Below, piece after piece: positions 1-16,731 of a stretch of DNA of 34,957 bases. Position numbers and translations under genes: made by a program. This DNA is from a virus (taxonomy: Duplodnaviria > Heunggongvirae > Uroviricota > Caudoviricetes). Below the pieces are notes generated by a model, which was not told where the DNA came from, ran no database searches, and saw only the letters and a list, made by a program, of their open reading frames with translations. Within the stretch, counting starts at the first letter, position 1. Every line of letters starts with the position of its first letter. The stretch spans positions 1 through 34,957 of the IMG/VR virus record IMGVR_UViG_3300029085_000005; one strand, written 5' to 3'.

Positions 1-51
1 GGAGGCCATGGTTCAATGGTCCGTCTGCCCCCTGTGGTGATGTCAGCAAAA

Positions 52-189
52 TCAGCCACTGCGCGAACCACAATAGCCAGTTCGGGATTCGCATCCGTTG
101 CATTTTGCCCGGTAATATCCTGAAATTGCTTTCACCGTAACAGATGGACAACCACAAAACGGACATGGTTTAACATCGTCATATCTCAT
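52..189 (-). CDS. ralR: Lar/RalR-like restriction alleviation protein (about 45 aa, Cys-rich)
   Basis: Hand translation of the minus strand gives MRYDDVKPCPFCGCPSVTVKAISGYYRAKCNGCESRTGYCGSRSG with CPFCGC and CNGC motifs, matching my recollection of Rac RalR/Lar. It sits immediately downstream of recT as in Rac. Below the 60-aa cutoff of the ORF track; coordinates hand-counted. Confidence 0.5.
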   Translation of the reverse strand: MRYDDVKPCPFCGCPSVTVKAISGYYRAKCNGCESRTGYCGSRSG

Positions 190-245
190 AATTTTTGTCA
201 TAAAAACTGTCTCACGTTGGCGGTGCATTACACCGCCAGGCTGAA

Positions 246-1055
246 TTATTCTTCTGAATTATCGATTACACTGTATTCCCCGGTTAATACAGAGGAGTCT
301 GCCGGATCGATTGTCAGTGGTTCCTTTTCATCCATTGATACTGCACGCTGGATTTCAATTGAGACAGGCAGGTATTTAAACAGGCGACGAATAGCCGTTT
401 TTTTTGCCATTTCTTCCCAGTGAGTTACCCATGGCCCGTTATTACCAGCCTTACTCTGGCTGCGCACCAGTTCAATCTGTTTGCGCGTCATAACTTCAAA
501 CTGAGTCCCTCCGTCTTTCAGTCTTGCGACAGCATAGACGTGGGTCACTGGTGCATCTTCGTTTTCTCCCGGGCGGTGTATTAACTTTTCATCAAGGCCA
601 AATTCAAAACTAAACTCGTCACCTTCACGGACAACACGGGCTGACAGGCTGGCGATTTGACCAGAACGGCGAGCCAGATCAATCATGCCGCGATAACCAA
701 TGATTAGCTGAACGTTCTTTTTACCGCTCTTTTCGTTTTTATTACCAAAAGGCAGTAAATATGCGTGGCCGAGGGCGCTACCTGGCTCAAGGCCGAGCTG
801 TGAACACTGAACGATCGCACTGACAAAACTCATGGTGTCACAGTTTCCTAGCGCCGGAACCTTACGAATTTCTGTGGTGGCGATACGTATCATTCGTTCA
901 GCCGTCATATGGCGTGGGAGAGCTGCTGCCAGTTGCTCTTTCATTGATGGCTGATTAATAAAGCTGATCACGTCGTTATTTTTTACTGCTGCTGGTGCAC
1001 GGTTTCCCTGGGTTTTTTGCAGATCGGCTTTTGCGATAGGTGGTTGCTTAGTCAT
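246..1055 (-). CDS. recT: RecT single-strand annealing recombinase
   Basis: ORF 246..1112 translation from the internal Met ([24 protein letters not shown]...) matches Rac RecT as I recall it; start moved to that Met (19 codons in). Overlaps the recE stop by a few nt, as in the Rac recET operon. Confidence 0.9.
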
Positions 1056-3723
1056 TTGCATACTCCTTAGCCCAGCGGGGCAGTGATAACGTTTTAATAG
1101 CTGGCCATTCATCGGTATTCAGGCAGTCAGCCAGGGTCCTCAGATTGCGGTGATATTCCTGCTGGCCTGCCAGTTTTGCTTCTTCGCCCATCATGAAAAT
1201 CTCAACCGGGTAACGTCCGCATTCAACAGTTGTGCTGGCAACCAGAAAAACGAAAGTTGGCAGCACACCAAACTGTGCTTCATAACCGTCACTGTAGAAT
1301 GCATCCTGAACGTGATAGCGGTAGTCGTAATAAGCCGTTTTGAATCGTTGAATATCCGCTGTGGTTTTCACGTCCATGATCCAGTGAAATTCAGGGATAA
1401 TTTTGTCCGGACGGCACCGACACAAAATTCCTGTTTCAGGATCTTCCCAGTAAATTGATGATTCAGCGTGTCCGGCGCTTTCAACAAGCCATTGACCCAG
1501 CGGCAAAGCCATAACGCTCTGATACATGAGTTCAATTTTCCGGCCTTCTTCGGCAGTGATAACCGTTTTTCCTGTGCTTGCGCATTCCATCAGAAACGCT
1601 TTCTCCTCTTCTTTTCCGGCGGTTGTACGGCGGTTAAATTCAGGTGCCACGATAAAGCGGTTACTGAATTCTTCCGGTTCAAGTACACGGCAGTGGAAAG
1701 CGGTTCCTAAATCGAGCGTTTTTGTCTTTGTGGTGTCCACTGGGGCATTTTTACGCCACAAATACAGAGCCGGAGTATCAGCAATGTCGTCGAGCTGAGA
1801 CTTACTGACACCGGGACCCGCGTGGTAATTCTCATTCGAAATTCCGTAATAAATACCAGGCTCTATGTCTCCTGCGATTACGGGATCTGCGACTTCGCCA
1901 GTTTCATCACTGCAATCGCGATGCGGATCGCTGCCAGCATTCTCATTGTGCGGATGTTCAGGGCCTTCCATTTCCTCCGGATCTTTTTCCTGAGATTCAT
2001 CCAGATTTTCTTCATTAAAGGTTTCCTGATATGTGGTGTCGCCCATCACCGCGCCACAATCAGGGCAGTTGCCGCCACCGCTCTGACCGCGGGCGGCACA
2101 GACTTTTTCCGGTTCCTGTTGCGCTACTGGTTCAGATTGTTTCGTTTCTGGCTCATTTTTCTGTGCATTTTGGCTGTTTTGTTCCGCTTTCTGGTTGTTT
2201 TGTTCCGATTTGGGCTGGTTCTGGTTCACAGAATCTCGGGTTTCAATTCCCTTAACCCATTTCGGATCATTCGGGTCGCTAATCCCTTCAACAAATTCTC
2301 CGCGAGAGGCAGCCAGTAATTTGTCTGCATCGACAGGATTTTTGGGCGGAATGTTTTTCCGGGCTTCATAGAGTTCTGCCCGCAGTTTCTGATATTTCGC
2401 ATCAACAGAATTTACCTGTGACTGAGCATCCAGCGGCTGCGTGTCCTGATGATGTTCAGTTGCATCCGGTTCCACTGTTTCAGCCGTTGCCTGTTCATCT
2501 GCCATTGCGCAAGATGGTTGCAGTTTTTCTTCATCATCCTGTTTTTCTTCTTCTGTTACACGCTGCGGCATCGGGGCAGAGGAACGACCGCAGGCAATAT
2601 CCACGATTTCTGGATCAGGGTTGGCATGATCAGTTTCAGTCAGTACTTTGTTAAGATATTCAGTGACGTGTGCGGGGATAACCTCGATCCCAATTGGTGC
2701 TTCTTTTACGGACGCAACCACGATGGCGCGGGAATAATCCAGCCCGCCAGGCATGGTGATGAATTTGTCGCGGAAAACAGAAAAGGGCGGTTTATTTTCA
2801 GCGATAATTTCCTCGACACGTTTAGCGTGTGCCGGATGAAGGTTATAAATGTCCACGTCCATTGAACGAGCCAGTACGCCAGTGGCTACGTCGCGCGCCA
2901 GTGACGTCAGATCGTGAATGAAACCTTCGCCGCGATCGGTGAGGTTCCCGCCGCCAGCATTAGCGCCGGAAGCCGTGCGCGTGATGCGTGAAACACGATT
3001 TCCTTTCATCCACTCTTTTGTCAGCAGACCGCGATCGGTGTAGTCTGCGTCCAGGTATGCCTCGAAAAAAGCAGTTATCAGTCCCAGGTCTGAATTACCG
3101 GGATTAGGGAAAACTTTGTCAGTGTCGCGTACCAGTTTGTGAAGGTCGCGAATCTCCAGCGGGTCGAGCAGCTTTGTTTTGTGAGAAATGGCCAGGGCAG
3201 TAACAGCCGGCAGTTCTTCCGCCCGTGCTATATGTAATGCCTGAAGTTCTTCCCGTGCAACGTGCGTTACTGGTTTTTCGCTGCTGTGTTGCGCAAGCCA
3301 GCGAATGGGCAGCTCCTGACCAGAAACCGGCAGGAGCATATTCTCCTCAATCTCCGTCATGTCTTCGCCGTTGACGTTGGTATTGTCAGTACTGGCTGGT
3401 TTCTCCTGCACGGAGGGAGAGGGCGCGATAAATACCATTGTAATGCCATCTTCCCCGCCTTTTTCGTATCGGTTGCAGAATTCGGTATCAAACACGCCTT
3501 CAGGTGGAAGGTCATTCACAACGGGTAAATGGACGCGAACGGGTTTTTTAAAGTCGTCTTCATCATAATCGTTGTCATCCATTGCGGTAATGCAGCGGGA
3601 GATGGCAACAGATAATTTTTTTGCTGTAGTCCAGTAAAAACCACCTTTAATTCCCAGACGTTTTCTGACTTTGTCATTTTTTGCTTCGCAATATAGCGCA
3701 AATTCTTCTTTATCAGTGCTCAT
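1048..3723 (-). CDS. recE: RecE exonuclease VIII (5'-3' dsDNA exonuclease)
   Basis: 891-aa ORF; the C-terminal nuclease region (...[20 protein letters not shown]...[14 protein letters not shown]) and much of the body match Rac RecE from memory. Directly upstream of recT on the same strand. Confidence 0.9.
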
Positions 3724-3815
3724 TGATAAACCTCATTACAGATTTAAGGGTGAACAAATCCCTGCCATTGCTGGCATTTTTAATCCGTTGGTATGGTGTT
3801 AATATGGCTGGAGGG

Positions 3816-4004
3816 TTATCCAGCCGGTGTTTCGTTATTCAGGTACAGCGATACTTTTTTTACCGGGAGGCATTCACCAGAAATTTTTTGCTCGTCTCTT
3901 GCCTGGAGGCAGGATTCTTTACTGGCATAAATTCCGGTAATCACATTCTGTGATTCACCCGTTATAAGAAAAACCGTCATCATCAGTGCAAATGCTGAAG
4001 TCAT
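3816..4004 (-). CDS. hypothetical small protein with hydrophobic N-terminus (early-left operon)
   Basis: 62-aa ORF, 4-nt ATGA-type overlap with the upstream ORF 4001..4189, same strand as recE; N-terminal hydrophobic stretch SAFALMMTVFLITG. No family recognised. Confidence 0.4.
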   Translation of the reverse strand: MTSAFALMMTVFLITGESQNVITGIYASKESCLQARDEQKISGECLPVKKVSLYLNNETPAG

Positions 4005-4189
4005 TGACGCTCTCCGAAAATACCAAGTTCAAGAAGAGCAATTCGGGAAAGTATGGAATTATCATTGAGCAGATAAGGCTCATATTTCCTCATATTAATG
4101 GCATCTTCAGTAAACTCCCGGTTACTGAGCAGAACACCAATATCAAAACAACCTTCAGACGTATTAACGTTTGGTAATAACGTTTCCAT
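4001..4189 (-). CDS. hypothetical small protein (early-left operon)
   Basis: 62-aa ORF translationally coupled to 3816..4004; position equivalent to the racC/ydaE/kilR slot of Rac, but no sequence match recognised. Confidence 0.35.
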   Translation of the reverse strand: METLLPNVNTSEGCFDIGVLLSNREFTEDAINMRKYEPYLLNDNSILSRIALLELGIFGERQ

Positions 4190-4765
4190 TATCGCGTCCT
4201 CAACAATGAATTTTGTGATGCAGTGCCTGGTGCCTCCAGGTGACGTTAACCAGTTAACAATTAACGCCGGGTTAGTTGATGCTCGTTACGCCAGTAAAAG
4301 ACCGCCTTACTGCTTTAACTGTTCCGCGTGCGCATAGCCGCATTCACCGCATCACAAAATTCACTTTAAAAAGGGCGGCAGAGCAGTCACGGAGTAAAAC
4401 TGATACCGCCAAACGTCACCAGAAAATTGATAACAGAGGGCGTTGCAGCGGGGTTGTCACTTAAGCGTATGGTCAACCTGACAACCCGGTGTCCTCAACG
4501 GGGAAGGAATAACCCCGTCATACTTACCGCCGCGCCATTTCGCGGAGTGTCACAACCGGAAGCGCACGGTCGACGAAAATTTAACGACAGGCTATCTATG
4601 AACCAGCTACCTCGCCGTGCGCTTTCGCGTTATGGTCTGACTTTTCATGGAAATATCCTTTCAGTAAACTGTCAGTGCCGGATTCTTATCCGTGTCCGGC
4701 GCACGCACTCTACCTCACCCGTGGAGAACTCCTTAATTACCAACCTTAGCTTCGTTGGTTATCTA

Positions 4766-4984
4766 TTAACGCGGGTATGTAATCATTCTGGCAATGCTTA
4801 ATGCCGCTGCTTTTTCCAGCCTGGTGATATCCTGCTCCAGAGCGGACAGATTTTCAGCCTGCTTAGCTCTGGCTTCATTAGCCCATTTCAGATCCTGCGC
4901 TGCATTAATTTTCTGGCGCATCCACTCATAAAGTTCATCATCGGTATAGTCTGGCGCGATGATGACGGGTTCTCGTTTCTGCAT
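4766..4984 (-). CDS. hypothetical protein (early-left operon)
   Basis: 72-aa ORF with a protein-like composition (MQKREPVIIAPDYTDDELYEWMRQKINAAQDLKWANEARAKQ...), co-oriented with recET. Confidence 0.45.
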   Translation of the reverse strand: MQKREPVIIAPDYTDDELYEWMRQKINAAQDLKWANEARAKQAENLSALEQDITRLEKAAALSIARMITYPR

Positions 4985-5013
4985 ACTGATTCCTCGCGGT
5001 GCTGTTTCGCTTA

Positions 5014-5124
5014 TCAGCCGTTAGATTTTGCCGAACTGGAAAGCGCCTGTTTAAATTCGTTGAAGCTGTGAGCTTCTTCGCCTTCGGCAAGGCCTTCGAA
5101 GTATTCTTCGTAAGCCTTTTCCAT
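5014..5124 (-). CDS. possible small acidic protein (about 36 aa)
   Basis: Hand translation MEKAYEEYFEGLAEGEEAHSFNEFKQALSSSAKSNG between the ORFs at 4766..4984 and 5144..5299; below the ORF-track cutoff, no clear RBS checked. Confidence 0.2.
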   Translation of the reverse strand: MEKAYEEYFEGLAEGEEAHSFNEFKQALSSSAKSNG

Positions 5125-5143
5125 GATTGTGTCAAAATCCATA

Positions 5144-5299
5144 TCACTCACCTGAGTTTCTTTCCAGCCAGCGACGGGCACCATTTTCGGTTTTAAACGT
5201 TTTGCTTTTTGTATACGTCATTGCGGTGAAGGTGCCGTCCTGGTTTGGAAACACGCCGTACACCAGAGATTCGTTGTTGCCAAGATCGATAGTATCCAT
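5144..5299 (-). CDS. YdaF-like small protein (about 51 aa)
   Basis: Internal Met of ORF 5144..5380 gives MDTIDLGNNESLVYGVFPNQDGTFTAMTYTKSKTFKTENGARRWLERNSGE, which I recall as the Rac YdaF/DUF1391-type small protein; GAGGT Shine-Dalgarno before this ATG. The longer start at 5380 is possible. Confidence 0.5.
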   Translation of the reverse strand: MDTIDLGNNESLVYGVFPNQDGTFTAMTYTKSKTFKTENGARRWLERNSGE

Positions 5300-5590
5300 G
5301 CTGACCTCATTTCCCCTTAACGCCGGGGTAGCGGAACAAAAACCTGCTGCATAGTTATTAAAGTTGAACCCTGCCGTCATGTTCTTACGCCTCGGGCTGG
5401 CTACTTAACCCCTGACCACTGCCTGGTAACTCGAAGTATTGTCCTGCATTCTGTAGGATGGGGTGAGGGAATGAATGAAGTTTAGAAAAACGAGCTTTCC
5501 AGGTCAATGTTTTTTATCAAAACATTTTAAGCAGGCAGCTGTTAAGCCATCACCACGATGGCATACAGTTAATCAAATAGATGAGGTTGG

Positions 5591-6184
5591 TTAAATATCT
5601 TGTTGAATTTTAAAGCATACGCCCAATATGCAAGATAGATCATCCAGCATAATTGAAGGGTAGCGAGGATTCGTGGGGACTAAAAGAATATCCGGCCCTT
5701 CTATCTCCAGTTTACGAATGACAGGTGTTGTGGTCCCTTTGGGTAAGGCAAGGACAATATTTCCTGGTTGTACGGTTCGATCGGGATCAACAAAAACTGT
5801 TGAACCATTTGGGATGGAAACTCCCCCACCAGATGTTGACATACTGTCACTCTCTAGAACAACTGCAAAGGTATTGACCGGGATTTCTCCGACAAGCTGC
5901 ACACAAGAGGTTATTGAGGAATTTTTCATAAGCTTGCTGCCTGCTGAAGTGATAGTAGCGGAACCGTTTTTATCGGCGGTAAAGATAGATCAAGCGAATC
6001 ACCTGTATTTAACTCTCCTCCATTAAGAAGCCAATTTTCGTTTACTTTCAATATTTTTGCCAGTGAACTTATGTAACGCGAGGACGGCGCTCCTCCACCG
6101 TTCATCCATTGACTTACGGAGCCTTTTGATGCGCCAGTGCCATTGACAAGGTCTTTGCCTTTCAGATATAGTTTGCTTGCTCAT
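5591..6184 (-). pseudogene. CI/LexA-type repressor (HTH_XRE + peptidase S24) split across reading frames
   Basis: ORF 5591..5929 encodes only an S24 domain (FAVVLESDSM...GNIVLALPKG...LVPTNPRYPSI...ILGVCFKI). Immediately upstream on the same strand but in another frame is an HTH domain with no start codon (...LKGKDLVNGTGASKGSVSQWMNGGGAPSS...LAKILKVNENWLLNGGE...), ending in a stop that overlaps the S24 ATG. The ATG at about 6184 opens a third short frame. The ORF track confirms that no 60-aa ORF covers the HTH segment. Confidence 0.6.
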
Positions 6185-6275
6185 GTTTTGATTTTAAAAC
6201 ACAGATGGTTTTGTTTCTTGACTTTCTTTGGTTTTGATTATTAAACTTTTGACGTTCAGTTTTATGGAGCGACTC

Positions 6276-6518
6276 ATGAAAAAATCAGAAGTATTAGGCT
6301 ATTTTGGCGGAGTTGTTAAAACAGCCGCAGCTCTAGGAACGTCAAAAACCACAGTCAGCATGTGGGGGGAAGAGGTTCCGTGGAAATGGGCGTTGCTAAT
6401 TCAGGCAGTCACTGCCGGGGCGCTCAAATATGAGTTACACATACCGACGGTTGTCATTCCCGGTTCTGATCATAATCCGCCTTCTAACCAAGGGGGGATT
6501 CATGAAAATCAAGCATGA
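6276..6518 (+). CDS. Cro-like HTH regulator, YdaS family
   Basis: Internal Met of ORF 6228..6518 gives MKKSEVLGYFGGVVKTAAALGTSKTTVSMWGEEVPWKWALLIQAVTAGALKYE..., an HTH of the YdaS/Cro type; divergent from the repressor gene across an AT-rich operator region. Confidence 0.6.
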   Translation: MKKSEVLGYFGGVVKTAAALGTSKTTVSMWGEEVPWKWALLIQAVTAGALKYELHIPTVVIPGSDHNPPSNQGGIHENQA

Positions 6519-6927
6519 ACACATCCGCATGGCGATGAATGCCTGGGCGCATCCGGACGGCGAAAAAGTACCGGCTGCGAAAATTACCAAAGCGTATTTC
6601 GAGCTGGGAATGACGTTCCCGGAACTGTATGACGACAGCCATCCGGAAGCCCTGGCTCGCAATACCCAGAAAATTTTCCGCTGGGTAGAGAAAGACACCC
6701 CTGATGCAGTTGAAAAAATTCAGGCGTTGTTACCAGCGATCGAAAAGGCAATGCCACCTTTGCTGGTGGCCAGAATGCGCAGCCACAGTTCAGCTTATTT
6801 TCGGGAGCTGGTGGAGACGCGGGAGCGACTGGTGAGAGACGCTGATGATTTTGTCGCAGTGGCAATCGCCGGTTTCAATCAGATGAACCGTGGTGGCCCG
6901 GCAGGGAATGCTGTGGTGATGCACTAA
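6502..6927 (+). CDS. YdaT-like protein (CII-position regulator or toxin-like)
   Basis: Internal Met of ORF 6430..6927 gives MKIKHEHIRMAMNAWAHPDGEKV...; the MKIKHEHI start and about 141-aa size match my recollection of Rac YdaT; directly follows the YdaS-like gene. Confidence 0.55.
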   Translation: MKIKHEHIRMAMNAWAHPDGEKVPAAKITKAYFELGMTFPELYDDSHPEALARNTQKIFRWVEKDTPDAVEKIQALLPAIEKAMPPLLVARMRSHSSAYFRELVETRERLVRDADDFVAVAIAGFNQMNRGGPAGNAVVMH

Positions 6928-6949
6928 AAGCACGGTGTTCGGGGGTTTT

Positions 6950-7912
6950 ATGAGCAGCAAGCTTCATGGTCTTGTCTGGGAAGGGTGCGCCTTCACCGGC
7001 ATGATCTTATCCAGGGTGGCGGTTATGGCCCGTCTTGCAGACTACAGCAATGACGAGGGCGTGTCATGGCCTGCCATTGAAACTATCCGGCGTCAGATCG
7101 GTGCAAGAAGTGAATCCACAGTGAAATCGGCTATTGCAGAACTGGCGAAAGAGGGCTGGCTGACGAAGGAAGAGCGTAAGGTCGGTGGGCGTAATGTAAG
7201 CAATATCTATCGGCTTAATGTGGAAAAACTCGAAGCAGCTGCGGCGGCGGCGCGTGAGTCATATAAACCGAAAAGAAAAATTAGCCCGGCAAAAAATGAC
7301 CCGTTAACAGTTGACCCGTCAAATATTGACCCCTCAACGGTTGACCCGTCAAATTTTGATGGATCAACTGTTGATAAAAAACTGCCGATTAGGGGGGCGA
7401 TGATTGACCCCGATCCGTCAGTATTAAAACCTGATCCGTCAGATAAAAGATCTTCTTGTCCGGACGCTTCGCAACCGGACCCGCAGACGGCTGAACAGGA
7501 TTTTTTAACCCGACACCCTGACGCGGTTGTGTTCAGTGCGAAAAAACGCCAGTGGGGAAGTCAGGAAGATTTGGTGTGCGCACAGTGGATCTGGGGACGA
7601 ATCGTGAGTCTTTACGAGCAGGCGGCCAGCTATGATGGCGAGATCACTAGACCGAAAGAACCCAACTGGACAGCATGGGCCAATGACGTTCGCACAATGC
7701 GGATGCTGGATGGCAGAACTCACAGACAAATTTGTGAAATGTTTGGGCGTCTCCAGCGGGATTCGTTCTGGGTAAAAAACATCATGAGTCCGGCAAAACT
7801 CCGGGAAAAATGGGATGAACTGGTTATCCGCCTGGGGCGTTCGCCTGCGCAGCGTTGCGTGAATCACATTTCTGAACCGGACACTGAAATACCGCCGGGA
7901 TTCAGGGGGTGA
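6950..7912 (+). CDS. replication initiator, lambda O-like (winged-helix N-terminus)
   Basis: ORF 6935..7912; N-terminal wH motif (WPAIETIRRQIGARSESTVKSAIAELAKEGWL), a repetitive DP/ST-rich linker encoded by DNA iterons, gene immediately precedes the DnaC-like loader. Start placed at the ATG (MSSKLHG) 15 nt into the ORF, preceded by GGGGG. Confidence 0.7.
   Translation: MSSKLHGLVWEGCAFTGMILSRVAVMARLADYSNDEGVSWPAIETIRRQIGARSESTVKSAIAELAKEGWLTKEERKVGGRNVSNIYRLNVEKLEAAAAAARESYKPKRKISPAKNDPLTVDPSNIDPSTVDPSNFDGSTVDKKLPIRGAMIDPDPSVLKPDPSDKRSSCPDASQPDPQTAEQDFLTRHPDAVVFSAKKRQWGSQEDLVCAQWIWGRIVSLYEQAASYDGEITRPKEPNWTAWANDVRTMRMLDGRTHRQICEMFGRLQRDSFWVKNIMSPAKLREKWDELVIRLGRSPAQRCVNHISEPDTEIPPGFRG
7295..7460. 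repeat. putative replication origin: direct iterons (TGACCCGTCAA-type, about 15-bp period) plus adjacent AT-rich stretch inside the O-like gene
   Basis: Read in sequence: atgacccgttaacag / ttgacccgtcaaatat / tgacccctcaacgg / ttgacccgtcaaatttt, then gttgataaaaaactgccgatt, then further tgaccccgatccgtcag and tgatccgtcag copies. Same organisation as ori-lambda inside O. Coordinates approximate. Confidence 0.45.
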
Positions 7913-7918
7913 CGTGTC

Positions 7919-8665
7919 ATGAAAAACATTGCGGCAGTTGGGGTTCTTGAACGTATTCGCAGACTTGCACCACAGGGGTCGGTTCCACCGTACCGGACGG
8001 TGGAGGAGTGGCGGGAATGGCAACTTGCTGAAGGACGAAAACGCAGCGAGGAGATTAACCGCCAGAATCGCCAGTTGCGGGTGGAAAAAATCCTGAATCG
8101 TTCGGGCATCCAGCCTCTGCACAGCAAATGCTCGTTTGCAAATTATCAGGTGCAGAACGACGGGCAAAAATACGCGCTGAGCCAGGCCAAATCCATAGCT
8201 GACGAACTGATGACCGGGTGCACGAATTTTGTGTTCAGCGGTAAAACCGGCACCGGGAAAAATCACCTTGCAGCGGCGATGGGCAACCGGCTGATGGTGA
8301 AGGGGCGCAGCGTGATTATCGTCACCGTGTCTGACGTCATGAGCGTGTTGCATGACAGCTACGACAACGGCAAATCCGGGGAAAAATTTTTACAGGAGCT
8401 TTGCGGGGTTGATTTGCTGGTCCTGGATGAAATAGGCGTTCAGCGGGAGACGAAAAACGAGCAGGTGGTATTGCACCAGATAATTGATCGCCGGACAGCA
8501 TCACTGTGCAGTGTCGGGATGTTAACAAACCTGAATCATGCCGCAATGAGTACGCTTCTTGGTGAGAGGATTATGGACCGCATGACCATGAACGGTGGTC
8601 GATGGGTGACGTTTAACTGGGATAGCTGGCGTCCAAATGTCAGCAATATGAGGGTTGTGAAGTAA
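7919..8665 (+). CDS. DnaC-like replicative helicase loader (IstB-type AAA+ ATPase)
   Basis: Walker A FSGKTGTGKNHLAAA and Walker B DLLVLDEIG; about 248 aa; follows the O-like gene as in Rac ydaV and lambda P-position genes. Confidence 0.85.
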   Translation: MKNIAAVGVLERIRRLAPQGSVPPYRTVEEWREWQLAEGRKRSEEINRQNRQLRVEKILNRSGIQPLHSKCSFANYQVQNDGQKYALSQAKSIADELMTGCTNFVFSGKTGTGKNHLAAAMGNRLMVKGRSVIIVTVSDVMSVLHDSYDNGKSGEKFLQELCGVDLLVLDEIGVQRETKNEQVVLHQIIDRRTASLCSVGMLTNLNHAAMSTLLGERIMDRMTMNGGRWVTFNWDSWRPNVSNMRVVK

Positions 8666-8686
8666 TTTTGTCCGGAGGAAATTTTA

Positions 8687-9457
8687 ATGGAAACCGTATC
8701 TGACGCACTGAAAGCACTGAAAAAAGCCTCTTCACATGTGGTGGCAGCTCGCCTTGGAATCAGTCGTGAAGAGGCTGTCAACGAGCTGTGGGAACTCAAA
8801 AGAAAAGGCGTCGTTGATAAAACTGGTCACACCTGGTTTCTGGCTGGCGAAGGTGAATCCCGGGTAACCGAAGAGCGGCCAGTAAAATCTGAAGCACAGG
8901 ATATGCTGACCGGGGAGGTCGAACAAAAAGTTACCGCAGACATGATGATTGAGTTTATCGGTCAGGATGGGGCTAAAACGTGTGAGGAACTGGCGGGTAA
9001 GTTCGGTGTCAGTACTCGCAAGGTTGCTTCCACGCTGGCGGTGGTAACCGCAACGGGGCGGCTGGCACGCGTTAATCAGAACGGTAAATTTCGTTACTGC
9101 ATGCCGGGCGATAATTTACCAGCAGAGCCGAAAGCCGCGCTGGTAACGGAAAGTGATGGTAAGGCCTTTCCTCAGCCAGCAGGTGCTGCGTTACCAGTCC
9201 GGGAAGCCGCAACACAGGAAGAAATTAAAACAGAAACTGTGGCGGACATTGTGCAGCCGTTGCCATCGTTTACCGAAACGCAAGCAGATGAGCTGATTTT
9301 TCCGTCCCTTCGCAGGGCAAACCTGGCGCTGCGCAGGGCGAAAAGTGATGTTCAGAAGTGGGAGCGAGTCTGCGCCGCGCTGCGGGAGCTGAACAAGCAC
9401 CGGGATATTGTTCGACAGATTACTGATTCTTCCCGCCGTGTTGTATCGGAAAAGTGA
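8687..9457 (+). CDS. hypothetical protein with two winged-helix-like segments
   Basis: 256-aa ORF; segments HVVAARLGISREEAVNELWELKRKGVV and TCEELAGKFGVSTRKVASTLAVVTATGRL resemble wH DNA-binding motifs. Family not identified. Confidence 0.45.
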   Translation: METVSDALKALKKASSHVVAARLGISREEAVNELWELKRKGVVDKTGHTWFLAGEGESRVTEERPVKSEAQDMLTGEVEQKVTADMMIEFIGQDGAKTCEELAGKFGVSTRKVASTLAVVTATGRLARVNQNGKFRYCMPGDNLPAEPKAALVTESDGKAFPQPAGAALPVREAATQEEIKTETVADIVQPLPSFTETQADELIFPSLRRANLALRRAKSDVQKWERVCAALRELNKHRDIVRQITDSSRRVVSEK

Positions 9458-9472
9458 TTGCCGGAGGCGCTT

Positions 9473-9898
9473 ATGGCAAAAGTATTTACACAAGAAGAGC
9501 GGGAAAAAATTAAAGGGCAGGTTGTTGAACTTGTACGTCTGAGCGGTCGCGAGACGTTGCGGCAACTGGAAGCCAAGACAGGTGCGACAAGATATCTGAT
9601 GAGTGTTCTCGCCAGAGAGCTGGTTGCCAGTGGCGATGTATACAACTCTGGTTACGGGTTATTCCCGTCTGAACAGGCGCGTAAGGACTGGCAAAATGCT
9701 CGCAAAAAACTCTCAAGGGCAAAGGTGAAGAAACCTGCAGTGGTTGATCCGGACCTTATCTGGTCGTTACCAGACGGCGAAATACGCCGCTACGACAGGC
9801 GCCTGAATATAATCTGTCGCGAGTGCCGGAAGAGCGAAGCTATGCAGCGTGTACTGGCATTTTATCAAGGAAATGTTAGGTATTTTAGACGTTACTAG
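9473..9898 (+). CDS. hypothetical protein (winged-helix-like)
   Basis: ORF 9458..9898 with probable ATG start at MAKVFTQEE...; contains TLRQLEAKTGATRYLMSVLARELVASGDV, similar in pattern to the preceding ORF. Confidence 0.4.
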   Translation: MAKVFTQEEREKIKGQVVELVRLSGRETLRQLEAKTGATRYLMSVLARELVASGDVYNSGYGLFPSEQARKDWQNARKKLSRAKVKKPAVVDPDLIWSLPDGEIRRYDRRLNIICRECRKSEAMQRVLAFYQGNVRYFRRY

Positions 9899-10051
9899 AT
9901 TAAAGAGCATTAGTTCAGATGTGAATTGACATTTTCATGGCGCAGGGTAGAGCCAGCGTGGTTGTCCGCTTTGCGTCAAAACCAGATATTACCAGATTTA
10001 GACATATATTCCCGATAGCCCTGCTCTGATGCTACACTCTGTGCTATTTTC

Positions 10052-10738
10052 ATGACCCCAATAAAAATATTTATGACTATTGCTGATTTCAAACGGCCTA
10101 AATTGGAGCTCCCAAACGGGGCAAACAAACTACTACTGCACTCTTGCTGTGCTCCATGTTCCGGTGAAGTGATGGAGGCGCTTCAGGCCTCGGGAATCGA
10201 CTACACCATCTTTTTCTACAACCCGAACATTCATCCTCAGAAAGAGTATTTAATTCGTAAGGATGAAAATATTCGCTTTGCTGAACAACACGGCGTGCCG
10301 TTTATCGATGCTGATTACGACACCGACAACTGGTTTGAACGTGCCAAAGGAATGGAATGGGAGCCTGAGAGGGGGATCCGTTGTACCATGTGTTTTGACA
10401 TGCGTTTTGAGCGGACAGCGTTGTACGCTGCTGAAAATGGTTTCAGTGTGATCAGCAGTTCACTGGGCATTTCACGCTGGAAAAATATGCAGCAGGTTAA
10501 CGAGTGTGGGCGGCGAGCTGTTGCGCATTATCCGGGTATGGTGTACTGGGATTATAACTGGCGCAAGCAGGGCGGCTCGTCCCGTATGATTGAAATCAGC
10601 AAGCGCGAAAAATTCTATCAGCAGGAATATTGTGGCTGTGTGTATTCTCTGCGCGATACCAATCTACACCGCAAATCTCAGGGACGCCCTCTTATCAAAA
10701 TTGGCCAACTCCACTACGGAAAAGAAGAGAAGGAGTGA
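10052..10738 (+). CDS. QueH-like (DUF208) putative epoxyqueuosine reductase
   Basis: 228-aa ORF with [11 protein letters not shown] near the N-terminus and EYCGCVYS near the C-terminus, the Cys pattern I associate with the DUF208/QueH family; flanked by intergenic regions with promoter-like hexamers (stand-alone moron). Confidence 0.55.
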
Positions 10739-10918
10739 TTTTATGGATCACCTTTCTGATTGATTTCATATTGGCGAGGTGACGTGAGTTAAGTAGAATG
10801 GCTGCGGGTGCTTGAGGCTATCTGTCTCAGGCATGAACACTGAAAGGCAGATAGAGAAAAGCCCCAGTTAACATTTCGCGTCCTGCAAGACGCTTAACAT
10901 TAATCTGAGGCCCAATCT

Positions 10919-11131
10919 ATGTCTCACAAATGTAGGTTAGCCTCTTACGTGCCGAAAGGCAAGGGGAAGCAGGCTATGAAGCAGCAAAAGGCGATGTTAA
11001 TCGCCCTGATCGTCATCTGTTTAACCGTCATAGTGACGGCACTGGTAACGAGGAAAGACCTCTGCGAGGTACGACTCCGAACCGGCCAGACGGAGGTCGC
11101 TGTCTTCACAGCTTACGAACCTGAGGAGTAA
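10919..11131 (+). CDS. mok-like overlapping reading frame of a hok/sok-type locus
   Basis: 70-aa ORF starting 57 nt upstream of, and in frame with, the Hok-like ORF, as mok does for hok. Confidence 0.4.
   Translation: MSHKCRLASYVPKGKGKQAMKQQKAMLIALIVICLTVIVTALVTRKDLCEVRLRTGQTEVAVFTAYEPEE
10976..11131 (+). CDS. hok: Hok/Gef-family type I toxin (51 aa)
   Basis: MKQQKAMLIALIVICLTVIVTALVTRKDLCEVRLRTGQTEVAVFTAYEPEE: N-terminal TM segment, the conserved RK.LCE.R motif and VAAF/VAVF..YE tail of Hok proteins. Confidence 0.75.
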   Translation: MKQQKAMLIALIVICLTVIVTALVTRKDLCEVRLRTGQTEVAVFTAYEPEE

Positions 11132-14404: not shown

Positions 14405-15456
14405 ATGCTTAATACTGTAAAAATATCCAGTTGTGAGTTAATCAACGCCGACTGCCTGGAATTTATCCGGTCGTTACCCGAAAATTCTGTTGACCTGATA
14501 GTCACGGACCCGCCGTACTTTAAAGTGAAGCCTGAGGGCTGGGATAACCAGTGGAAGGGCGACGATGATTACCTGAAGTGGCTGGACCAGTGTCTGGCGC
14601 AGTTCTGGCGGGTGCTGAAACCTGCCGGAAGTCTTTACCTGTTCTGTGGTCATCGCCTGGCATATCTGATATCGAAATCATGATGCGTGAACGCTTCAGT
14701 GTGCTGAACCATATTATCTGGGCGAAGCCGTCCGGACGCTGGAACGGATGCAACAAGGAAAGCCTGCGGGCGTATTTCCCCGCCACAGAGCGCATTCTGT
14801 TCGCGGAACATTATCAGGGGCCGTATCGTCCGAAAGATGCCGGGTATGCGGTGAAGGGCAGTGCACTGAAACAGCATGTGATGGCCCCGCTGATTTCTTA
14901 CTTTCGTGATGCGCGCGCGGCCCTGGGGATAACGGCAAAACAGATTGCAGATGCCACAGGAAAGAAAAACATGGTGTCGCACTGGTTCAGTGCCAGTCAG
15001 TGGCAGCTACCGAACGAAAGCGATTATCTGAAATTACAGTCGCTGTTTGCCCGGGTGGCAGAAGAGAAACATCAGCGCGGTGAACTGGAAAAGCCCCACC
15101 ACCAGCTGGTGGATACGTATACGTCACTGAACCGGCAGTATGTGGAGCTGCAGAGTGAATATAAGCATCTGCGGCGGTATTTTGGTGTGACGGCGCAGGT
15201 GCCGTACACGGATGTGTGGACACATAAACCGGTGCAGTTCTATCCCGGGAAACATCCGTGCGAAAAACCGGCAGAAATGCTGCAGCAGATAATCAGCGCA
15301 AGTAGCCGTCCTGGTGATCTGGTTGCGGATTTTTTCATGGGGTCGGGTTCAACGGTAAAAGCGGCGATGGCACTGGGGCGTCGTGCGATTGGTGTTGAGC
15401 TGGAGACCGGACGTTTTGAGCAGACAGTCAGGGAAGTTCAGGATTTAATCGTTTGA
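14405..15456 (+). pseudogene. beta-class DNA amino-methyltransferase (N6-adenine or N4-cytosine), interrupted by a +1 frameshift
   Basis: ORF 14405..14683 carries motif IV DLIVTDPPYF and LKPAGSLYLFCGH; ORF 14578..15456, in the +1 frame and overlapping by about 100 nt, carries the rest including motif I DFFMGSGST near the C-terminus. Together they make one methyltransferase of about 350 aa. Confidence 0.65.
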
Positions 15457-15505
15457 AACGGATGAGATTGCAGAATTAATTACGCACCATTATTATTCTG
15501 CTCCC

Positions 15506-15581
15506 GGCCCTTTAGCTCAGTGGTGAGAGCGAGCGACTCATAATCGCCAGGTCGCTGGTTCAAATCCAGCAAGGGCCACCA
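15506..15581 (+). tRNA. tRNA-Ile2 (anticodon CAU, ileX/ileZ-like)
   Basis: ggccctttagctcagtggtgagagcgagcgactcataatcgcc...ggttcaaatccagcaagggccacca: perfect 7-bp acceptor stem, CAU anticodon in a 7-nt loop, T-loop TTCAAAT, CCA end. Closely resembles E. coli tRNA-Ile2 from memory; elongator Met is not formally excluded. Confidence 0.7.
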
Positions 15582-15588
15582 TCACATA

Positions 15589-15665
15589 CCGCCATTAGCT
15601 CATCAGGAAAGAGCGCCAGCCTTCGAAGCTGGTTGCGCGGAGTTCGGGTCCCCGAAGGCGGTCCA
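15589..15665 (+). tRNA. tRNA-like element, Arg(UCG)-type anticodon arm, degenerate acceptor and T arms
   Basis: Perfect anticodon stem ccagc/gctgg with loop cttcgaa (anticodon UCG), D-arm gctc...gagc and terminal CCA, but one A-A mismatch in the acceptor stem, one A-C mismatch in the T stem and a non-canonical T-loop ttcgggt. Coordinates approximate. Confidence 0.4.
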
Positions 15666-15678
15666 TTATCTGTATCCT

Positions 15679-15755
15679 GCGTTGTTAGCTCAGCCGGACA
15701 GAGCAATTGCCTTCTAAGCAATCGGTCACTGGTTCGAATCCAGTACAACGCGCCA
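15679..15755 (+). tRNA. tRNA-Arg (anticodon UCU, argU-like)
   Basis: gcgttgttagctcagccggacagagcaattgccttctaagcaatcggtcactggttcgaatccagtacaacgcgcca: perfect acceptor stem, loop cUUCUAa, canonical T-loop GTTCGAATC, CCA end. Confidence 0.75.
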
Positions 15756-15801
15756 CACTTATTTTCCCTGGCTCGCTTTTGTGGGCCTTTTTTTTAAATG
15801 T

Positions 15802-16020
15802 CTCACAATTTAGGCGGTTGACTGTTGTCTGGTTTGCGGGGAGTTTGTTAAAAGAAACTGGCATGGTGAATCCCCCTGTGCGGAGGGGCAATCAGCGAGT
15901 AGGTATATGGGATAATCGCGGATTCAGGTGCTGGTACTGAATTCACCGGGAGGCACCCGGCACCATGCAATGGCACATAGCGCCACTCTCCAGCCCCTCT
16001 CCGGAGGGGCTTTTCTGTGC
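15802..16020 (+). repeat. structured non-coding module, copy A (promoter-like hexamers, two GC hairpins, terminal intrinsic terminator)
   Basis: Begins ctcacaatt; contains gttgactgttg, gcatggtgaatccccctgtgcggaggggc (hairpin), ctgaattcaccgggaggcacccggcaccatg (hairpin), and ends gcccctctccggaggggcttttctg. No credible ORF. Coordinates approximate. Confidence 0.5.
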
Positions 16021-16204
16021 CGGATACATCACAGTTTCTGGAACCTTAGGTACTACAGTATCAGTCAGGGTGCTATATTTTCAGATGTGATGAAAGCCTG
16101 TCAGCAGGCAGGGCGTATCGGAAATGACCCAGTAGAGAAAACGTTGACTCAGATACCGGTGCTGAGTTACCGGGAAACCGGCATCACATGACCGCTATCC
16201 TTCC

Positions 16205-16231
16205 AGGCCCATCCGCTCCGGTGGGCCTTTT
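16205..16231 (+). terminator. intrinsic terminator between the two modules
   Basis: ggcccatccgctccggtgggccttttt: 6-bp GC stem with T-tract. Confidence 0.5.
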
Positions 16232-16269
16232 TACTGCAGAAAACAGGTTCCCCGTTAAATGCTATGTTG

Positions 16270-16508
16270 CTCACAATTCAGTAAGTTGACAGTTGCCTGT
16301 CAGACTGGGCATTTGTTAAAAAAATTTCGCATGGTGAATCCCCCTGAGCGGAGGGGCGACTGGTGACGGTATAATCTCTGATTATCAAAACGAGAATGAC
16401 GCGGGTTTAGTGGCACCGGGCTGAACTCACCGGGAGGCACCCGGCACCATGTGCATGATGATACAGATACGCGGCTTTAGCCCCTCTCCGGAGGGGTTTT
16501 CTTGTGGG
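16270..16508 (+). repeat. structured non-coding module, copy B (paralogue of copy A)
   Basis: Begins ctcacaatt; TTGACA inside the palindrome tgacagttgcctgtca; gcatggtgaatccccctgagcggaggggc; consensus TATAAT (ggtgacggtataatc); ctgaactcaccgggaggcacccggcaccatg; ends gcccctctccggaggggttttcttg. Blocks collinear with copy A, variable sequence between them. Confidence 0.5.
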
Positions 16509-16731
16509 CAAAAAAAGCCCGCGCTGGGAGACGCGGGCGGCAAGGAATAAACAATAAAACGTGAAGTAATATTTCAGCTGGCGAATAATACCCCATAGTA
16601 ATCACTCTGCGCAACTGCGCGGTCTTTTTCGAATTGCGGGCTGTCGTCTCTCTTCTGCCATTGTCCTGTAACTTCCGGACTTCAGCCCGCTCCTTATTTT
16701 ACTCACAATATTATCCCGGCCGGGAGGATTC

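What the first reader, a model, noticed from the sequence alone, without database searches (positions are those of the whole stretch)
5591..6184. Immunity repressor split across three reading frames
The peptidase S24 domain is an ORF on its own (5591..5929). The HTH domain lies directly upstream on the same strand but in a different frame, with no start codon and a stop overlapping the S24 ATG. The only ATG at the 5' end opens a third frame that stops after about 53 codons. As I read it, the 5' shift coincides with the sequence atgagcaagcaaact and the 3' shift with agcttatgaaaa. An inactive repressor is expected in a clear-plaque or virulent derivative, in a defective prophage held silent by other means, or it may reflect assembly indels. 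Each interpretation changes how the whole element should be read.
Basis: partly seen in the sequence, partly recalled or inferred. Interest (0 to 1): 0.55.

Follow-up and report, generated by a model that had tools for sequence, protein, structure and literature searches.

The report
Phage immunity repressor broken by two deletions
The lysogeny (immunity) repressor gene of this lambda-like E. coli phage has been knocked out by two small deletions, an ordinary kind of mutation that most likely marks a variant that can only grow lytically.

Summary
The split is real, but it involves two reading frames, not three. The 5' ATG (6184) and the S24 ORF (5591..5929) share a frame, and only the HTH/linker segment (5932..6165) is shifted.

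Alignment to intact homologues gives the cause. The window is base-for-base identical to a continuous 212-aa CI-type repressor gene (434-like HTH plus S24 autoprotease, Ser129/Lys173), except for two deletions:
- 35 bp flanked by a CTGAA direct repeat, which removes HTH helix 1
- 10 bp (GGAGTGATTA) just after the cleavage-site region

Neither HTH nor S24 is a gene of its own. The 112-, 174- and 199-aa database "proteins" examined at DNA level are start-codon calls on intact DNA.

All 99 inspected E. coli genomes (of 1,039 carrying the locus) and 80 of 80 viral contigs have the intact length. The double-deletion allele occurs in only one other record, a metagenome contig. That contig has the phage in attP (non-integrated) gene order.

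The rest of the window looks lytically competent. Best reading: a genuine cI-null, clear-plaque-type lytic variant. The rivals are a prophage silenced in trans and an assembly artefact.

One curiosity: the 35-bp deletion creates the only near-consensus sigma-70 site in the window (TTGACA-N18-TATAGT), and it points at cro.

This is a known kind of mutation and of modest interest.

The parts
6161..6184 (-). Retained 5' end of the repressor gene: ATG (6184..6182) and codons 1-8 (MSKQTISE). No Shine-Dalgarno sequence lies upstream. A TAAAAT hexamer at 6196..6191 sits 6 nt before the ATG, which suggests a leaderless PRM-type transcript (inference).
6160..6166 (-). Junction of the 35-bp deletion. 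The missing sequence is CTGAACGCATAACCCAACGTATGCATGCGCTAAAC. Placement is ambiguous over the 5-bp direct repeat CTGAA (6165..6161). The deletion removes codons for helix 1 of the HTH (about R9-N18) and shifts the frame.
   Evidence: 434-repressor and P22 C2 matches over residues 1-69
6023..6184 (-). The 53-codon ORF that the start codon now opens: 8 native codons, then 45 out-of-frame codons, then a stop. No family match.
   Evidence: this exact peptide is absent from the 15-billion-protein collection
5932..6165 (-). HTH helices 2-5, linker and cleavage-site region (codons L19-S96 of the intact protein). They are 100% conserved at DNA level but lie in the +1 frame relative to the ATG. The only in-frame start is the internal ATG at 6105.
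5930..5931 (-). Junction of the 10-bp deletion. The missing sequence is GGAGTGATTA, with no microhomology. It removes W97-Y100 codon bases and the GGAG that precedes Met101 in the intact gene. It creates TGA overlapping the S24 ATG, and an AAGCTT site.
5591..5929 (-). Peptidase S24 / dimerisation domain, codons M101-I212 plus stop, back in the frame of the 5' ATG. Catalytic Ser129 is at 5845..5843 and Lys173 at 5713..5711, by alignment to lambda cI Ser149/Lys192.
6143..6172 (+). Promoter-like site TTGACA-N18-TATAGT (11 of 12) created by the 35-bp deletion and pointing toward cro. It is the only site with at least 10 of 12 matches on either strand of the whole window, and it is absent from the intact allele.
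6185..6246 (.). Switch region between repressor and cro. It holds operator-like 16-mers GTTTT-N6-AAAAC at 6185..6200 and 6231..6246, and a PR candidate TTGACT-N18-TAAACT at 6218..6247. It is identical to intact homologues.
6276..6927 (+). Intact early-right genes: a P22_Cro-family Cro (6276..6518) and the YdaT CII equivalent (6502..6927).
5479..5523 (-). PL candidate (TTGACC-N17-TAAACT, 5507..5479) with an adjacent operator-like palindrome at 5509..5523. In this window the palindrome has a T6 run (GTTTT-N5-AAAAC) instead of the usual T7 (N6).
4004..4424 (-). Intact division inhibitors of the leftward operon: dicB (4004..4189) and DicF sRNA (4373..4424). Without a repressor they should be expressed.

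Best explanation
The locus is a null allele of the phage's single CI-type immunity repressor. The intact protein has 212 aa: a 434-like HTH, a linker, and an S24 autoprotease/dimerisation domain.

How the allele arose (shown):
- A 35-bp deletion between two CTGAA repeats removes HTH helix 1 and shifts the frame after codon 8. This is the signature of replication slippage or microhomology-mediated deletion.
- A 10-bp deletion lies two codons past the position that aligns with lambda's Ala-Gly cleavage site.
- The sequence is otherwise identical to intact alleles, so both events are recent.

Consequences (inferred):
- The start codon now yields only a 53-residue nonsense peptide. The S24 ORF has lost the GGAG that precedes it in the intact gene. 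No DNA-binding repressor can be made.
- The operators at PR (cro-ydaT-replication-Q) and PL (ydfABC-DicF-dicB-exo) should therefore stay unoccupied.
- The phage then cannot establish or maintain lysogeny on its own and grows as an obligately lytic, clear-plaque-type variant.

Sub-confidences:
- Genuine null allele caused by these two deletions: about 0.9.
- Carried by a lytically propagating variant rather than a silent prophage: about 0.6.
For: - The window is identical at all 731 aligned bases to intact genes, except for gaps of 35 and 10 bp.
- The intact ORF has 212 aa with Peptidase_S24 (4e-13) and HTH_3 matches. It aligns to lambda cI with Ser and Lys conserved, and to the 434 and P22 C2 N-terminal domains.
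- 1,039 of 5,426 complete E. coli genomes carry the locus. None reaches 99% identity to the window's allele. All 99 full-coverage records listed (40 best plus 59 evenly sampled) span the intact 381 bp.
- 80 of 80 best IMG/VR loci encode residues 1-212 without interruption.
- Isolates with the same ydaT/O/IstB module are intact.
- A separate record, ENA ERZ1741997 NODE_365 (coverage 47x), carries both junctions exactly. It differs from the window at a homopolymer and in its left flank.
- In that contig the integrase is followed, 162 nt after its stop, by tail-fibre genes (attP order). Relatives with the same left arm are integrated next to yebY, and the one of them whose contig reaches the repressor (L005) has an intact cI.
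- Every other gene tested in the window (replication, Q, lysis, terminase, portal, capsid, tail) is uninterrupted, apart from one methylase.
- Loss of the analogous repressor RacR is lethal to Rac lysogens (PMC5700373, PMC5700377). dicB and DicF are intact here. A stable lone lysogen is therefore unlikely.
Against: - The window does not include att sites, so its own integration state is unknown.
- The attP junction in L006 could also come from tandem prophages or a metagenome mis-join.
- The window and L006 might derive from the same sample or reads, so their independence is unproven.
- No read-level data could be examined.
- Two separate hits in one 600-bp gene with no other change is somewhat unexpected under neutrality.
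- A co-resident homoimmune prophage could keep such an element silent. Six more places than genomes were found, so a few genomes hold two copies of this repressor locus.
Confidence: 0.6

Rival explanations
1. The element is an integrated prophage whose own repressor is dead. It is kept silent in trans by an intact homoimmune repressor from a second prophage in the same cell, or it is otherwise unable to kill the host.
For: - The repressor type is common: 19% of complete E. coli genomes carry it, and a few genomes carry two copies.
- Lambdoid poly-lysogeny is usual in E. coli.
- The window carries a second frameshifted gene, a methylase, which hints at some decay.
- Tandem prophages would also give an attP-like junction.
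Against: - None of the 99 genomes inspected has any deletion allele.
- All lytic functions in the window are intact.
- The operators, cro, ydaT, dicB and DicF are intact, so silence would depend wholly on a second copy that has not been observed.
- L006 shows phage-phage, not phage-host, DNA beyond int.
Confidence: 0.25
2. The deletions are sequencing or assembly artefacts and the real gene is intact.
For: - The allele was found only in assembled metagenome-type records.
- No isolate genome has it.
- Read data could not be inspected.
Against: - Gaps of 35 and 10 bp in unique, non-repetitive coding sequence are not typical short-read assembler errors.
- A second record at 47x coverage has both junctions to the base, yet differs elsewhere in a homopolymer and in its left flank.
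- The 35-bp deletion has the CTGAA microhomology expected of a biological slippage event.
Confidence: 0.08
3. The HTH and S24 parts are genuinely separate functional genes, or the gene is decoded through programmed frameshifting.
For: - RefSeq annotates a stand-alone 112-aa 'LexA family protein' at this locus in many genomes.
- The HTH-frame stop overlaps the S24 start as ATGA.
- The net shift is zero.
Against: - In the genome checked at DNA level the underlying sequence is one continuous 212-aa ORF. The one 174-aa call and the one 199-aa call checked at DNA level are also start-call artefacts on intact DNA.
- The HTH fragment here lacks helix 1 and any start codon before residue 39.
- The frame changes coincide exactly with deletions relative to more than 100 inspected homologues. 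No recoding is needed, and recoding would not restore the 15 lost codons.
Confidence: 0.02

Closest known systems
Lambda cI / 434 cI / P22 C2 repressors (HTH + LexA-like S24 autoprotease)
   Same: - The intact homologue has the same two-domain layout.
- Its N-terminal domain matches 434 and P22 C2.
- The Ser/Lys dyad aligns with lambda Ser149/Lys192.
- The gene is divergent from a cro gene, with repeated palindromic operators between them.
   Different: - In the window the gene is not a single ORF.
- The position that aligns with lambda Ala111-Gly112 reads Ala-Ala.
- The neighbours are P22_Cro-type Cro and YdaT instead of lambda Cro and CII, in a Rac/Qin-like phage with dicB and DicF.
Clear-plaque (c) and lytic deletion derivatives of temperate phages, for example lambda cI mutants, mycobacteriophage D29 and TP901-1 clear-plaque mutants
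   Same: - The immunity repressor is lost through small mutations or deletions in an otherwise complete temperate phage genome.
- D29 is described as a deletion derivative of a temperate parent (PMC5712189).
- TP901-1 clear-plaque mutants map to the genetic switch (PMC4892519).
   Different: - The phenotype is not measured here.
- This allele was seen in environmental assemblies rather than selected in the laboratory.
- It carries two separate deletions within the one gene.
Promoter-creating immunity-bypass mutations such as lambda c17 (own knowledge, not checked in a paper here)
   Same: A small rearrangement in the immunity region generates a new sigma-70 promoter that reads into the early-right operon.
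   Different: - The site here lies upstream of the operators, inside the repressor gene, so bound repressor could still block it.
- Its activity is untested and it may be coincidental.
RacR / DicA repressors of the cryptic prophages Rac and Qin
   Same: - They have the same genomic role: keeping a cro/ydaS-ydaT operon and a dicB-type operon silent.
- Their loss is toxic to the host (PMC5700373, PMC5700377).
   Different: - No RacR- or DicA-type repressor is annotated at this position; the repressor here has an S24 autoprotease domain. That RacR and DicA lack one is own knowledge.
- The element here is a seemingly complete phage, not a cryptic remnant.

Membership tests
CI/LexA-type phage repressor (HTH + Peptidase S24) | C-terminal S24 domain with a Ser/Lys catalytic dyad | tested here: met
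   Pfam PF00717 matches at E = 1.7e-13 on window 5591..5929. Ser129 and Lys173 align with lambda cI Ser149 and Lys192.
CI/LexA-type phage repressor (HTH + Peptidase S24) | Complete N-terminal helix-turn-helix DNA-binding domain | tested here: not met
   The intact homologue matches the 434 and P22 C2 N-terminal domains over residues 1-69. In the window the codons for helix 1 are deleted and the rest is out of frame. The HTH_3 score is 21.7 bits, below the 23-bit cut-off.
CI/LexA-type phage repressor (HTH + Peptidase S24) | Both domains encoded in one continuous ORF | tested here: not met
   The window has a 53-codon ORF, a frame-shifted segment and a 112-codon ORF. The homologues inspected have a 212-codon ORF.
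CI/LexA-type phage repressor (HTH + Peptidase S24) | Ala-Gly (or Cys-Gly) self-cleavage site between the domains | tested here: inconclusive
   The position that aligns with lambda Ala111-Gly112 reads Ala94-Ala95 in the five full-length homologue sequences read (QQAASW or QQAANW). Whether it can be cleaved is unknown.
CI/LexA-type phage repressor (HTH + Peptidase S24) | Divergent from cro, with repeated operators in between | tested here: met
   A P22_Cro gene lies at 6276..6518. GTTTT-N6-AAAAC sites lie at 6185 and 6231: 5 matches in the window against 1.7 expected, two of them within this 90-nt spacer.
Clear-plaque / obligately lytic derivative of a temperate phage | Immunity repressor is a null allele | tested here: met
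   Two frame-breaking deletions; no ORF encodes an HTH with a start codon.
Clear-plaque / obligately lytic derivative of a temperate phage | Lytic functions otherwise intact | tested here: met
   tblastn with homologue proteins finds every replication, Q, lysis, terminase, portal, capsid and tail gene within the window uninterrupted. The tail tip and fibres lie outside the window.
Clear-plaque / obligately lytic derivative of a temperate phage | Genome present in non-integrated form | tested here: inconclusive
   L006, which carries the same allele, has attP gene order (int, then tail-fibre genes). The window itself lacks att sites, and tandem prophages would look the same.
Clear-plaque / obligately lytic derivative of a temperate phage | Clear plaques and inability to lysogenise | not testable with these tools
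   Requires culture of the phage.
Virulent (immunity-insensitive) mutant | Operator changes or a new promoter that makes early transcription insensitive to repressor | tested here: inconclusive
   A new 11-of-12 promoter-like site lies at 6143..6172. There is a 1-nt spacing change in the PL-side palindrome. The OR operators are unchanged. No activity data are available.
Programmed ribosomal frameshift gene | The frame change is conserved in homologues and needed to make the product | tested here: not met
   The homologues inspected are continuous. The frame changes coincide with deletions unique to this allele.
Stand-alone S24 protein (UmuD-like) | An independent gene with its own start in homologues, plus a umuC-type partner | tested here: not met
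   The 112-aa annotation in the genome checked sits inside a continuous 212-aa ORF. No umuC-like gene is annotated next to the locus in the homologous regions.

The most novel reading that the evidence does not exclude
The 35-bp deletion may be a selected, dual-purpose 'virulence' mutation rather than merely a knockout.

- It destroys cI and, by bringing TTGACA and TATAGT to 18-nt spacing, creates a strong constitutive rightward promoter just upstream of the operators. That promoter could drive cro, replication and Q even in cells that already hold the very common homoimmune prophage.
- The T6 spacing change in the PL-side operator of this window would then be a further step in the same direction.
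- Only 0.32% of all possible 2-60-nt deletions in this gene create such a site, and only 1 of the 110 flanked by microhomology does so.
Probability: 0.15. Interest if true: 0.55.

Novelty: new member of a known kind. Interest (0 to 1): 0.3.

Why it matters
- **How to read the element.** With no functional repressor, the window should not be annotated as a quiescent, self-maintaining prophage. It is better read as a lytic variant, or as an element dependent on another prophage's immunity.
- **An annotation trap.** RefSeq's widespread 112-aa 'LexA family protein' at this locus is an internal-start call inside an intact 212-aa repressor gene, in the genome checked. A naive comparison would therefore wrongly suggest that a stand-alone S24 gene is normal.
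- **If the new promoter is active.** This would be a natural example of a temperate coliphage escaping a very common superinfection immunity, which about 19% of complete E. coli genomes carry.

Tried and rejected
- **Junction searches.** Exact searches for both deletion junctions found nothing in GTDB species-representative genomes, IMG/VR or JGI metagenomes. The plasmid collection holds only an intact copy.
- **Fragment ORFs.** Exact look-up of the 53-aa and 59-aa fragment ORFs found them absent from the protein collection.
- **Possible single-deletion intermediates.** I suspected that the 174-aa database proteins were alleles with only the 5' deletion. The DNA of L031 is intact at the 5' end, so they are start-call artefacts.
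- **Finding the source contig.** The terminase small subunit and the O-like protein are too widespread to help. The exonuclease VIII and YdaT look-ups were the useful ones.
- **Paper search.** A search for the ENA accession returned nothing.
- **Generally degraded sequence.** Rejected, because only one other gene is frameshifted.
- **Functional rescue by the net in-frame 45-bp loss.** Rejected, because the shifted segment hits a stop at 6023..6025.

Full report
**1. What is in the sequence**

On the minus strand, an ATG at 6184 opens a 53-codon ORF (6023..6184) with no family match. A second frame carries an HTH-like segment. It has no start codon upstream of an internal ATG at 6105 and ends in a TGA that overlaps the next ATG. 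ORF 5591..5929 is a Peptidase_S24 domain.

Translating from 6184 runs straight into the S24 ORF frame, because 6184 - 5929 = 255, a multiple of three. The gene therefore leaves its frame once and returns to it.

**2. Cause of the split**

Megablast found this locus in 1,039 of 5,426 complete E. coli genomes and in a few sequenced phages. I aligned the window against E. coli G1/2 and phage vB_EcoS-640R1. All 731 window bases are identical to both references except for two gaps:

- **35 bp:** CTGAACGCATAACCCAACGTATGCATGCGCTAAAC, after ...ACTATAT. It is flanked by the direct repeat CTGAA. The window junction lies within 6160..6166.
- **10 bp:** GGAGTGATTA, between AGCT and TATG. The window junction is 5931/5930, with no microhomology.

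The references hold one continuous 212-codon ORF.

**3. What the intact protein is**

- It scores for Peptidase_S24 (4e-13) and HTH_3.
- In a PDB sequence search its residues 1-69 match the 434 and P22 C2 DNA-binding domains.
- Residues 13-204 align with full-length lambda cI, and lambda's catalytic Ser149 and Lys192 are matched by Ser129 and Lys173.
- The position that aligns with lambda's Ala111-Gly112 scissile bond reads Ala94-Ala95.

**4. What each deletion does**

- The 35-bp deletion removes the codons of HTH helix 1 (about R9-N18) and shifts the frame after codon 8.
- The 10-bp deletion lies two codons after the cleavage-site position. It restores the original frame at Met101.
- It also removes the GGAG that sits 8 nt before Met101 in the intact gene.

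**5. The domains are not separate genes**

RefSeq annotates a 112-aa 'LexA family protein' here, even in G1/2, whose DNA contains the intact 212-aa ORF. Other records-aa or 174-aa versions. The phage record with the 199-aa call holds the same intact DNA as G1/2. I checked one 174-aa case (L031) and its 5' end is also intact. These are start-codon choices, probably prompted by the internal GGAG-N8-ATG, and not biology.

**6. How rare the allele is**

- No E. coli genome record reaches 99% identity to window 5880..6215.
- All 40 best records and all 59 full-coverage records in an even sample down the ranking span 381 bp, the intact length.
- The best 80 IMG/VR loci all encode residues 1-212.
- Two isolate assemblies with the same ydaT/O/IstB module as the window are intact.
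- Neither junction string occurs in GTDB representative genomes, IMG/VR or JGI metagenomes.
- The fragment ORFs are absent from a 15-billion-protein collection.

**7. One other record has the allele**

A look-up of the window's 891-aa exonuclease VIII returned ENA ERZ1741997 NODE_365 (17,232 bp, coverage 47.6), held here as L006. It matches window 68..11020 at 99.98% and contains both junction strings exactly.

It is not the same record as the window. It differs in a T6/T7 run at 5509 and diverges completely left of window position 68. This argues against a one-off assembly error, although I cannot exclude that both derive from related samples.

In L006, homology to the integrated relatives (L005, L007, L008, which have int next to host yebY-copD) stops 162 nt beyond the int stop codon. 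L006 then continues into tail-fibre, lom and J-like genes. That is the attP gene order of an excised or vegetative genome. L005 has the same left arm (99.6% identical), is integrated and has an intact cI.

**8. State of the rest of the element**

tblastn with the proteins of two related prophages finds the following genes uninterrupted:

- ydfA, ydfB, ydfC and dicB
- Cro and YdaT
- the replication proteins
- QueH, HokD, DUF968, RusA and Q
- holin, lysozyme and Rz
- terminase, portal and protease-capsid
- the tail genes

The only other broken gene is an N6/N4 DNA methylase, which has an AT insertion at 14664..14665. DicF RNA is present.

The switch region is unchanged. It holds operator-like GTTTT-N6-AAAAC sites at 6185 and 6231 and a PR candidate at 6218..6247.

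With no repressor, both early operons should be open. In the related Rac prophage, loss of the repressor RacR is lethal because ydaS-ydaT are derepressed (PMC5700373, PMC5700377). YdaT is the CII equivalent in such phages (PMC9986795). A lone stable lysogen carrying this allele is therefore unlikely.

**9. Best explanation and rivals**

| Reading | Confidence |
|---|---|
| Genuine, recent cI-null allele carried by a lytically propagating (clear-plaque-type) variant | about 0.6 |
| Prophage silenced in trans by a homoimmune co-resident | about 0.25 |
| Sequencing or assembly artefact | about 0.08 |
| Truly split genes, or recoding | about 0.02 |

Confidence that the null allele itself is real is about 0.9.

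Repressor-loss derivatives of temperate phages are well known, for example D29 (PMC5712189) and TP901-1 clear-plaque mutants (PMC4892519). This is a new member of a known kind.

**10. An unexpected detail**

The 35-bp deletion brings TTGACA and TATAGT to 18-nt spacing on the plus strand (6143..6172), pointing toward cro.

- It is the only site with at least 10 of 12 sigma-70 consensus matches on either strand of the 35-kb window.
- It is absent from the intact allele.
- Enumerating all 26,888 distinct 2-60-nt deletions in the gene, 0.32% create a site of at least 11 of 12. Of the 110 flanked by at least 4 nt of microhomology, only this one does.

This is a post-hoc observation, and the site lies upstream of the operators. 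Still, it leaves open that the deletion was selected as an immunity-bypass mutation, analogous to lambda c17 (own knowledge).

The window also has T6 rather than the usual T7 in the palindrome next to the PL candidate. That shortens GTTTT-N6-AAAAC to N5. However, 3 of 80 loci with that run show the same T6, three of them viral contigs with an intact cI, so it may be a polymorphism or a homopolymer error.

**11. What I could not do**

I could not inspect reads, establish the window's own integration state, or test phenotype and promoter activity. The decisive experiments are listed separately.

Noticed in passing
window 14405..15462 (+): The N6/N4 DNA methyltransferase gene is frameshifted by an AT dinucleotide insertion at 14664..14665 (CATATCTG versus CATCTG in E. 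coli O157:H7 Z852). This leaves a 92-aa and a 292-aa ORF. A 92-aa N-terminal ORF is also called in other genomes (L011, L012).
   Followed up: partly
window 5509..5523: The operator-like palindrome next to the leftward promoter candidate has a T6 run, giving GTTTT-N5-AAAAC. 77 of 80 related loci, including L006, have T7 (N6 spacing, as in the two sites at OR). Three loci also have T6, all of them viral contigs encoding a full-length cI. This could be a polymorphism, a homopolymer error or an operator change.
   Followed up: partly
L001 3193..3831 and the RefSeq hits: RefSeq/PGAP annotates only the C-terminal 112 aa ('LexA family protein', WP_001420344.1) in many E. coli genomes. In the genome checked the 212-aa ORF is intact. 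The internal Met101 is preceded by GGAG-N8-ATG, which may mislead start prediction or might reflect a real internal start.
   Followed up: partly
Intact homologue residues 94-95 (window about 5935..5940): The site that aligns with lambda cI Ala111-Gly112 is Ala-Ala in this repressor family (QQAASW, or QQAANW in one variant). This raises the question of whether these repressors self-cleave on SOS induction.
   Followed up: no
window 1..67: The first 67 bases match none of the otherwise near-identical relatives (L005-L010). All of them diverge at position 68, inside a Lar-like gene. This is a mosaic breakpoint or a contig-end join.
   Followed up: partly
L006 12638..13114: In the metagenome contig with the same deleted allele, int is followed by an attP-type junction and tail-fibre/lom genes instead of host yebY. 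This is the gene order of an excised or vegetative phage genome.
   Followed up: yes
window 15506..16509 (+): Downstream of Q and the methylase there is a tRNA cluster (Met-CAT, Arg-TCG, Arg-TCT), followed by two copies of the sRNA family STnc100 (15832..16022 and 16300..16509).
   Followed up: no
window 10806..11128 and 4373..4424: A hokD/sok toxin-antitoxin locus (sok at 10806..10981, hokD at 10976..11128) and DicF sRNA (4373..4424, minus strand) are present and appear intact.
   Followed up: no
window 5930..5935: The 10-bp deletion creates an AAGCTT (HindIII) site at its junction. This is probably coincidental.
   Followed up: no
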